A DNA stretch of 60,835 nt, counting the filler, from Dugesia japonica (lineage: Eukaryota), in the NCBI GenBank assembly GCA_001938525.1. It is 6 parts of 6 records of this genome, joined end to end, with 100 filler letters (N's around TTAATTAATTAA, not from the genome) between each part and the next. Parts side by side here need not be neighbours in the genome. Positions count along the whole stretch, not along the records: positions 1 to 11,605 come from MQRL01609028.1; 5 more parts are not named here. The stretch is one strand, 5' to 3'. Position 1 is the first letter of the stretch. Each line of letters begins with the position of its first letter. Positions 1,991-2,775 of this stretch are shown piece after piece. The position numbers and the translations under genes were made by a program. The notes beneath the pieces are model-generated. The model searched no databases and had not been told where the DNA came from. It saw only the letters and a program-made list of their open reading frames with translations.

Positions 1991-2249
1991 TATTGCGTTC
2001 AAACAGCCAAATTTTATAGAGTTGAAATTTATCAATTGCCTGTTATCAAAAACAATGACGATTCATATTATTGAAAATTTGGTTAATTAGTTTAAAGAAA
2101 TTTTGAAGTAAGCTGAGAAATTTTGATTGCTTATTAATAAACAGAATATAAAACAAAATTATAAAAATAACTAATTTATTATTTTTAAATTAAAAATGAT
2201 AATTTTCATTAAGAGAAATTTAGGTTTTAATTATTGATATTGGATAACA

Positions 2250-2282
2250 AATCGATATTTCGACCTTGTCTTCGTCAGGATT
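2250..2282 (-). ncRNA. Minimal type-I hammerhead ribozyme, family A (inverted twin)
   Basis: Reverse complement reads AATC-CTGACGA-A-GAC-AAG-GTC-GAA-ATAT-C-GATT; core identical to the plus-strand copy. Confidence 0.75.
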
Positions 2283-2293
2283 AAGGATATTTA

Positions 2294-2328
2294 AAATCCT
2301 GACGAAGACAAGGTCGAAATATCGATTT
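2294..2328 (+). ncRNA. Minimal type-I hammerhead ribozyme (Penelope-associated variant), family A
   Basis: AAATC-CTGACGA-A-GAC-AAG-GTC-GAA-ATAT-C-GATTT: stem I AAATC/GATTT, core CUGANGA, stem II GAC/GTC, GAAA, palindromic ATAT in place of stem III, predicted cleavage after C2323. Confidence 0.8.
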
Positions 2329-2775
2329 GTTATCCAATATCAATAATTAAAACCTAAATTTTGATCTAAGCTTTCATATTAAATGAAATCTCTAAAACGA
2401 TCAATGGTTAAGTCCAACAATTATTCTCGCAATAATTTCAATTGTAAAATTAAGAGAAATGTTTAATATTTGGAATTTTATTTGATATTGTAATTGTTAT
2501 AGTGTTTGATATTGTATCACGGGTAAATTCATGGATAAATAGCCCATGGAAAAGAATTATGCAATGGTAAATTTAATATTATTAAAAGTGAAATATCTTT
2601 CGAAATCAAAAATATAAAAAAAGGAAAATGTTTATTCATAGATGCTATTCAAATTTCAACCAAAATTCTCCTGCTGATTTTTTTTTGAAAATTGTTTATC
2701 GTTTTAATGAATTTATATTTTATACCATATGCTTCACTAATTTTTAATTTAGAATTTATCTACGTGAAATGGAGA

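What the first reader, a model, noticed from the sequence alone, without database searches (positions are those of the whole stretch)
2208..2460. Compact ORF-less retroelement carrying two head-to-head minimal hammerhead ribozymes, bounded by a 12-bp TSD
Seen: a perfect 67-bp inverted repeat. Each arm reads AAATC-CUGACGA-A-GAC-AAG-GUC-GAA-AUAU-C-GAUUU outward from the centre. The ~230-bp unit is flanked by exact ATTAAGAGAAAT duplications and has no ORF. Known: Penelope-like elements carry minimal type-I hammerheads in their pLTRs, with a short palindrome replacing stem III, that cleave as dimers, and they often show 5'-inverted pLTRs. Inference: this is a young, trans-mobilised ribozyme mini-element. 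A transcript from either strand carries one sense ribozyme preceded by its own perfect antisense. Long read-through RNA would therefore fold into a 67-bp hairpin (ribozyme off, possible small-RNA substrate), while RNA starting in the spacer could cleave.
Basis: partly seen in the sequence, partly recalled or inferred. Interest (0 to 1): 0.8.

Follow-up and report, generated by a model that had tools for sequence, protein, structure and literature searches.

The report
Penelope-type ribozyme repeat inserted as hairpin
This is a short, recently inserted scrap of a known kind of animal jumping gene whose self-cutting RNA motif was copied twice, back to back, during insertion; it is real and tidy, but mostly an ordinary by-product of how such elements move.

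Summary
In detail: a perfect 67-bp inverted repeat (2216-2282/2295-2361), an exact 12-bp target duplication, and a motif on each strand that fits the published Penelope minimal hammerhead descriptor (3 sites in the window against 0.004 per shuffle). One correction: the left arm has a 4-bp stem I, not 5. The unit belongs to a dispersed family with 7 loci in the window. All 3 copies that keep both the ribozyme region and the 3' end are 5'-inverted, each with different arm length and junction. So the two-ribozyme layout looks like a per-insertion by-product, not a fixed design. Head-to-head inverted pLTRs with target duplications, opposite-strand ribozyme pairs and siRNAs from Penelope inversions are all published. 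Best reading: a pLTR-sized Penelope-type insertion copied from uncleaved RNA. Cis versus trans mobilisation cannot be told; no parent ORF was seen. Cleavage is untested. New member of a known kind; interest 0.3.

The parts
2208..2219 (+). Left target-site duplication, 12 bp, begins with ATT; its last 4 nt are shared with the inverted arm (junction microhomology)
2216..2282 (-). Inverted (5') arm, 67 nt, exact copy of 2295-2361 on the minus strand
2250..2282 (-). Minimal hammerhead motif of the left arm: C3 at 2278, stem I 4 bp, stem II 3 bp, predicted cut after 2254
2283..2294 (.). 12-nt non-palindromic spacer; holds a nested 5-nt inverted repeat (2284-2288 with 2296-2300), possibly the trace of a first fold-back
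   Evidence: the fold-back reading is inference
2295..2361 (+). Sense arm of the inverted repeat
2294..2328 (+). Minimal hammerhead motif: stem I 2294-2298/2324-2328, CUGACGA 2299-2305, extra A 2306, stem II 2307-2309/2313-2315 with 3-nt loop, GAAA 2316-2319, palindromic AUAU 2319-2322, predicted cut after C2323
   Evidence: descriptor from PMC4209133 Fig. S7
2304..2334 (+). Competing hairpin that sequesters GAAA and the cleavage triplet in the predicted ground state
2362..2448 (+). Unique 3' part, shared with other family copies; 22-codon ATG frame at 2383-2448; last ~32 nt (about 2417-2448) is a candidate Penelope 'tail'
   Evidence: ORF-start and tail readings are weak inferences
2449..2460 (+). 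Right target-site duplication, starting where homology to other copies ends
56160..56445 (+). Older family copy c2: also head-to-head inverted, arms about 113 nt (left arm crosses a 14-N gap), 14-nt spacer 56273-56286, both cores decayed, 3' end runs into an AAT-type repeat
41128..41294 (+). Family copy c4: 13-bp duplication (41128-41140/41282-41294, begins ATT) around a 141-nt insert made of an inverted ribozyme part (core intact, C3 at 41193 minus) joined to a sense 3' part without a ribozyme
   Evidence: the sense part scores above all 10,120 background windows (47 against max 42), nhmmer E=0.023
39915..40012 (-). Family copy c3: decayed ribozyme, no 3' end, no inversion seen
8589..8675 (+). 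Family copy c5: no ribozyme, stops about 30 nt short of the shared 3' end, AAT repeats on both sides
42182..42219 (-). Family fragment c6, cut off by a scaffold end
22078..22118 (-). Family fragment c7, mostly the last ~40 nt, same 3' end

Best explanation
The unit is a pLTR-sized insertion made by a Penelope-like element (PLE) protein. Steps: (1) shown: a dispersed ~175-nt family with a minimal hammerhead near its 5' end and a shared 3' end. (2) Inferred: a PLE GIY-YIG endonuclease made a staggered cut at an ATT site, giving the 12-bp duplication. (3) Inferred: reverse transcription started at the fixed internal 3' point and copied an uncleaved RNA through the ribozyme to about 5-30 nt upstream of the core, probably the RNA's 5' end. 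(4) Inferred: the cDNA folded back and copied itself for 67 nt (or the second nick primed on a second RNA), and the end annealed to the target through 4 nt of microhomology, giving the head-to-head repeat. The second ribozyme is thus a by-product of integration. The ribozyme motif is inherited from the parent, where it is probably a weak, dimer- or protein-dependent cutter. At this locus it is most likely silent: read-through RNA forms a 67-bp hairpin, a plausible small-RNA substrate. The template may be the 5' end of a normal PLE mRNA (cis) or a short non-autonomous RNA (trans); these were not separated.
For: Descriptor match far above chance; extra nucleotide after A9, G10.1-C11.1 and palindromic 15.2/16.2 as in PMC4209133. 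One stem I pair differs on both sides between this copy (A-U) and relatives (U-A). 3 of 3 copies that keep ribozyme region and 3' end are 5'-inverted with different geometry: arms 67 nt, about 113 nt, and non-overlapping. Arms within a copy are closer to each other (59/59; about 5 mismatches and 2 gaps over about 95 non-N columns) than to other copies (7-8 mismatches plus gaps in 59 nt). Both clear duplications (12, 13 bp) begin with ATT; two more copies abut AAT repeats; the Anolis PLE protein cuts at ATT, extends both strands and uses uncleaved RNA (PMC11167929). Head-to-head inverted pLTRs with 8-10 bp duplications and a pLTR plus tail covering 22 codons are described in PMC3846280. The same assembly holds two endonuclease-bearing PLE relics with their own decayed hammerhead.
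Against: No copy of this family is linked to an RT or endonuclease ORF: tblastn with 14 of 150 PLE-like proteins hit only the two family-B relics, whose 3' region is unlike this family. No Rfam hammerhead hit. Stem II (3 bp, 3-nt loop) sits at the descriptor minimum, smaller than any of 56 rows of Fig. S3 as read in text. Only 2 of 4 ribozyme-region loci keep an intact core; core conservation excess p=0.19. The compensatory pair is one event; the second both-sides change comes from a misaligned row (c5). The 22-codon frame is open by chance for 190 of 822 ATGs, and 6 of 22 residues differ from c2 with one synonymous change (counted by hand). No empty site was found.
Confidence: 0.75

Rival explanations
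1. Dedicated non-autonomous ribozyme mini-element whose master is itself palindromic, using the antisense arm as an off switch; arm length varies by 5' truncation.
For: 3 of 3 informative copies are inverted; all 4 ribozyme-region loci lose shared homology within about 30 nt upstream of the core, whereas 2 of 2 family-B relics extend into coding sequence; animal retrozymes derive from pLTRs (bioRxiv 10.64898/2026.07.22.740005).
Against: Junctions and spacers differ between copies; arms share copy-specific variants, so the inversion is younger than the split between copies unless arms are homogenised; c4 has only one ribozyme. A perfect hairpin would be a poor template and a silencing trigger (inference).
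Confidence: 0.13
2. The motif is not a working ribozyme lineage; the conserved feature is the competing hairpin, for example a protein-binding or replication signal, and the hammerhead match is incidental or long dead.
For: The competing hairpin is the predicted ground state and is 84.8% paired across rows; stem II is minimal; no Rfam hit.
Against: The hammerhead fold is better kept (93.0% paired, covariation 0.089, 3/500 shuffles) than the hairpin (0.067, 102/500), though related sequences can pass this control without structure; descriptor chance 0.004 per window.
Confidence: 0.07
3. Fold-back artefact of library amplification or assembly.
For: Fragmented short-read-type assembly with many N gaps and small duplications around gaps; arms 100% identical.
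Against: Needs two strand switches plus a 12-bp duplication at the family's 3' boundary; a second copy has diverged arms and a third has its own duplication.
Confidence: 0.03
4. MITE or foldback DNA transposon.
For: Short, non-coding, palindromic, dispersed, with target duplication.
Against: The inverted repeat is internal; the right arm ends 87 nt before the right duplication; duplication length varies (12, 13); copies share a 3' end and vary at the 5' side.
Confidence: 0.02

Closest known systems
Minimal hammerheads (min-HHR) of metazoan Penelope-like elements (PMC4209133)
   Same: Fits the published descriptor; extra nucleotide after A9, G10.1-C11.1, palindromic 15.2/16.2; the same U-A-U-C end occurs in Nematostella(1) and Latimeria(2) rows; dispersed single motifs and opposite-strand pairs 100-700 bp apart were reported.
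   Different: Stem II only 3 bp with 3-nt loop, the smallest against 56 listed rows; the two cores start 21 bp apart; no link to an ORF shown; a strong competing hairpin.
Inverted pLTR plus tail structures of EN+ PLEs in Adineta vaga and Drosophila virilis (PMC3846280, PMC8557442, PMC2377424)
   Same: Head-to-head 5' inversion shorter than the direct copy, target duplication, about 200-bp unit, AT-rich or microsatellite targets, possible 30-40 bp tail and 22-codon ORF start.
   Different: Here the whole insert is pLTR-sized with no ORF body; the parent element is unseen.
Poseidon element of Anolis (PAc, PMC11167929)
   Same: ATT target, fixed 3' end downstream of an intact ribozyme, uncleaved RNA as template; its ribozyme needed protein to cut.
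   Different: In PAc the ORF starts within stem II; here the first ATG is 60 nt after the cut site and coding constraint is not shown.
Animal non-LTR retrozymes (bioRxiv 10.64898/2026.07.22.740005)
   Same: Short, non-coding, type-I hammerhead, pLTR-derived, dispersed monomers occur.
   Different: Defined by head-to-tail tandem units; none here.

Membership tests
PLE minimal hammerhead (min-HHR) | Descriptor: stem I 3-7 bp, CUGANGA(+1), stem II 3-7 bp, loop 3-10, GAAANNUH | tested here: met
   both arms match; 0.004 sites per shuffle
PLE minimal hammerhead (min-HHR) | Extra nucleotide after A9, G10.1-C11.1 pair, palindromic 15.2/16.2 | tested here: met
   against PMC4209133
PLE minimal hammerhead (min-HHR) | Covariation and core conservation across the family | tested here: inconclusive
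   one independent compensatory pair in stem I; core excess p=0.19; 4 loci only
PLE minimal hammerhead (min-HHR) | Self-cleavage as dimer or with protein | not testable with these tools
   folding model disfavours the active fold; no known min-HHR was folded as a control
Autonomous Penelope-like element | ORF with RT and GIY-YIG endonuclease | tested here: not met
   none in the unit; it is not filed as an autonomous PLE
PLE-derived pLTR insertion | Sequence homology to the pLTR of an RT/EN-coding parent | not testable with these tools
   host genome not available; within the window no family copy adjoins an ORF
PLE-derived pLTR insertion | Target duplication at an AT-rich or microsatellite site | tested here: met
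   12 and 13 bp, both start ATT; c2 and c5 abut AAT repeats
PLE-derived pLTR insertion | Variable head-to-head 5' inversion, fixed 3' end | tested here: met
   3 of 3 informative copies inverted; 3' end shared by c1, c2, c7 and loosely c4
PLE-derived pLTR insertion | Optional 30-40 bp tail | tested here: inconclusive
   c5 stops about 30 nt short, but in a microsatellite that blurs the end
PLE-derived pLTR insertion | pLTR includes the start of the ORF | tested here: inconclusive
   22-codon frame to the 3' end in c1 and c2, chance 190 of 822; no coding constraint; no credible N-terminal match among 150 proteins
Non-LTR retrozyme | Head-to-tail tandem units each with a type-I hammerhead | tested here: not met
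   no tandem array at any family locus among 41 TRF rows
MITE / foldback DNA transposon | Terminal inverted repeats next to a constant-length duplication | tested here: not met
tRNA- or 5S-derived SINE | tRNA- or 5S-like head with Pol III boxes | tested here: inconclusive
   no such Rfam hit among 16 at E<=10; A/B boxes not scanned
microRNA precursor | Rfam family score at gathering threshold | tested here: not met
   all 16 hits below threshold; generic hairpin matches

The most novel reading that the evidence does not exclude
A high-copy, ORF-less PLE-dependent family whose insertions are nearly always inverted within about 30 nt upstream of an unusually small hammerhead, so that each new copy is born as a self-silencing hairpin. 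The ribozyme would be a true switch, held off by its own competing hairpin until the PLE protein binds. The fixed junction zone would then map the template's 5' end and let fold-back versus two-RNA priming be read from thousands of copies.
Probability: 0.12. Interest if true: 0.6.

Novelty: new member of a known kind. Interest (0 to 1): 0.3.

Why it matters
Little as a single locus: each ingredient is in print for Penelope-like elements. Its use is as a compact natural record of PLE integration. Both ends, the duplication, the microhomology and the fold-back junction lie in 253 bp, and the intact core agrees with uncleaved RNA being the template. How PLEs form head-to-head inversions and what their hammerheads do are stated as open in PMC3846280 and PMC8557442. 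With 7 loci in 57 kb of sequence, a genome-wide junction survey of this family could test those models. The 3-bp stem II would also be a small natural hammerhead if it cuts.

Tried and rejected
Rfam at gathering score (0 hits) and at E<=10 (16 hits, none a ribozyme): no support; miRNA models rejected as generic hairpin matches. Word-indexed protein search with the nearby endonuclease relic found nothing among 34 candidates; the exhaustive search did. The relic 700 bp downstream was tested as the parent and rejected: it has a different hammerhead and 3' region. The 22-codon frame gave no credible protein match. The AATT palindrome in c4 was considered as stem III covariation and not counted, since a local tandem duplication explains it as well. 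The both-sides change in stem II was dropped as a misaligned row. The sigma-70 scan is not relevant to an animal genome and gave fewer sites than shuffles. A reversed-window control gave 0 nhmmer hits; the hit at 12653-12696 (E=0.032) was not counted as a copy. No paralog of the flanks, so no empty site, in the window (output cut, best hits seen).

Full report
Context. The window is AT-rich (17-32% GC) animal DNA: a 3,077-codon frame at 42275-51508 encodes a vitellogenin/apolipophorin-type protein. It is not one contiguous locus. Five identical 100-nt linkers (44 N, a 12-nt stop linker, 44 N) split it into six scaffolds, so distant copies need not be neighbours. The host was not identified and its genome was not available.

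Observation. The inverted repeat is perfect over 67 nt with a 12-nt spacer, and the 12-bp direct repeat is exact. The whole unit folds at -116.8 kcal/mol, z -16.5. An exact 12-mer recurs at this spacing at 4 of 52,316 other positions, or 49 of 15,483 in a lenient test. The right duplication begins where homology to other copies stops. Two corrections: the left arm has a 4-bp stem I because the spacer is not palindromic, and the left arm overlaps the duplication by 4 nt.

The ribozyme motif. Rfam does not recognise it. I took the min-HHR descriptor from Fig. S7 of PMC4209133 and coded it. It matches three sites in the window: both arms and 41193(-). Shuffles give 0.004 sites, 2 of 500 with any. 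The extra A, the G10.1-C11.1 pair and the palindromic AUAU agree with that paper. Stem II, 3 bp with a 3-nt loop, is at the lower bound and smaller than all 56 rows of Fig. S3 as read from scrambled PDF text. In stem I one pair is A-U here and U-A in relatives; this is a single event, seen twice because of the inversion. The other both-sides change in that call is a misaligned row. The hammerhead fold is 93.0% paired over 57 cells against 84.8% over 66 for the competing hairpin; such controls can be passed by relatedness alone. This copy differs from the majority of other copies at 1 of 25 core positions and 11 of 85 downstream ones, p=0.19. So the motif is real; selection on it is only weakly shown.

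The family. A profile from two copies finds 11 hits at E<1 and none in the reversed window. They resolve into 7 loci; one weak hit was dropped. Four loci cover the ribozyme region, and two keep an intact core (this one and c4). c2 (56160-56445) is also head-to-head, with arms of about 113 nt, a 14-nt spacer, decayed cores and slightly diverged arms. c4 (41128-41294) has its own 13-bp duplication around an inverted ribozyme part joined to a sense 3' part; that sense part is a weaker match (score 47, background maximum 42 in 10,120 windows). c3 has no 3' end and no visible inversion. Thus 3 of 3 copies with ribozyme region and 3' end are inverted, each differently. Arms resemble their partner more than other copies, so inversions arose per insertion unless arms were later homogenised. 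Shared sequence stops within about 30 nt upstream of the core in all four; c2's spacer resembles c4's upstream sequence (4 of 10,720 background windows score as high). Both duplications start with ATT, and c2 and c5 abut AAT repeats.

A mobiliser of the right class. The frame at 3164-3502(-) has 269 relatives at E<=0.001. Of 10 scanned, 8 carry an RT domain and 3 a GIY-YIG domain, the PLE layout. A second relic lies at 35647-36264(-). Both are followed by a decayed hammerhead of another type. So PLEs were active in this genome, but these are not the parent. No copy of our family adjoins an ORF.

Mechanism. PMC11167929 shows a PLE protein cutting at ATT, extending both strands, starting reverse transcription inside the RNA near the ORF start, using uncleaved RNA, and enabling ribozyme cleavage only with protein. 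PMC3846280 describes about 200-bp pLTRs with a shorter head-to-head inverted copy, 8-10 bp duplications, solo pLTRs, and pLTR plus tail covering 22 codons. Our unit fits: fixed 3' end 125 nt after the cut site, intact core, 5' limit just upstream of the core, inversion, microhomology. A nested 5-nt inverted repeat in the spacer hints at fold-back self-priming; c4's non-overlapping layout fits priming from both nicks or a later deletion. These steps are inferred. Internal initiation near the 5' end of a normal mRNA would give the same short insert, so cis and trans cannot be separated. The 22-codon frame is suggestive only (190 of 822 by chance, no coding constraint).

Can it cut? Read-through RNA from either strand pairs the core with its antisense (>=0.997). 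RNA starting at 2278-2294 escapes that but adopts the competing hairpin (0.98), with stem I at or below 0.001. The modelled double hammerhead is -1.8 against -20.2 kcal/mol for the best dimer. The model ignores tertiary contacts, magnesium and protein, and I had no known min-HHR as control, so this lowers but does not exclude activity. Published min-HHR monomers did not cut and dimers cut weakly.

What is known. Opposite-strand min-HHR pairs 100-700 bp apart and a PLE with a second ribozyme on the opposite strand at its 5' end are in PMC4209133. Inverted 5' copies are a general PLE trait. siRNAs matching inverted Penelope regions are reviewed in PMC3681739. Five searches (listings only beyond the papers named) showed no paper on this family or on a pLTR-only hairpin with cores 21 bp apart; the library lacks most subscription papers.

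What I read: PMC4209133, main text parts 1-2 of 4 and the supplement text whole; PMC11167929, parts 1-2 of 4; PMC3846280, passages and the Discussion; bioRxiv 10.64898/2026.07.22.740005, part 1 of 5 and passages (its supplements not seen, and they may list related families); PMC8557442, PMC8969392, PMC2377424, PMC3681739, passages. Hammerhead numbering beyond these papers, the term twin priming, and the reading of the linker as a six-frame stop spacer are recalled or read directly from sequence.

Verdict. Real feature, correctly spotted. It works like a PLE pLTR insertion (confidence 0.75); membership rests on structure, since no parent was seen. It is not an autonomous PLE, a tandem retrozyme or a MITE. 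The paired ribozymes are best read as an integration by-product. New member of a known kind, interest 0.3.

Noticed in passing
window 2967-3585(-) and 35647-36264(-): Two 5'-truncated, decayed PLE relics (76.6% identical over 576 nt): C-terminal GIY-YIG-type endonuclease followed, about 90 nt after the stop in the first, by a decayed hammerhead with a different, longer palindrome; the first ends in an ATT/AAT microsatellite.
   Followed up: partly
window 11606-11705, 20939-21038, 33431-33530, 42231-42330, 51691-51790: Five identical 100-nt linkers: the window is six joined scaffolds of 9-12 kb, not one locus.
   Followed up: yes
window 42275-51508(-): Single 3,077-codon frame (with N gaps) for a vitellogenin/apolipophorin-type lipid transfer protein; about 9 kb with no evident intron; best hit 37% identical. 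Could be one very long exon.
   Followed up: partly
window 41638-42025: Another short repeat unit with a direct pair and an inverted copy (arms near 41869-41929 and 41965-42025, direct copy 41638-41696); no CUGANGA core; shares a 13-nt word with 2401-2413.
   Followed up: no
window 4072-5158(+) and 26324-27278(+): Broken LTR-retrotransposon fragments (RT, RNase H-like; zinc knuckle).
   Followed up: partly
window 15933-16247(-), 30547-30975(-), 27951-28370(+): DDE_1 transposase fragment (Pfam); a hAT-like fragment and a Polinton-type polymerase-like fragment, the last two by recalled resemblance only.
   Followed up: partly
window 22152-22689, 16714-17214, 17017-17517: Near-identical direct duplications flanking N gaps, probably assembly redundancy.
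   Followed up: no
window 56273-56298 and 41199-41232: The sequence upstream of the core is partly complementary to the family's region around the ATG; it may extend stem I or have served as junction homology in c4.
   Followed up: partly
window 8264-8336 and 9882-9954: A 73-nt inverted pair, 81% identical, 1.5 kb apart; possibly transposon ends.
   Followed up: no
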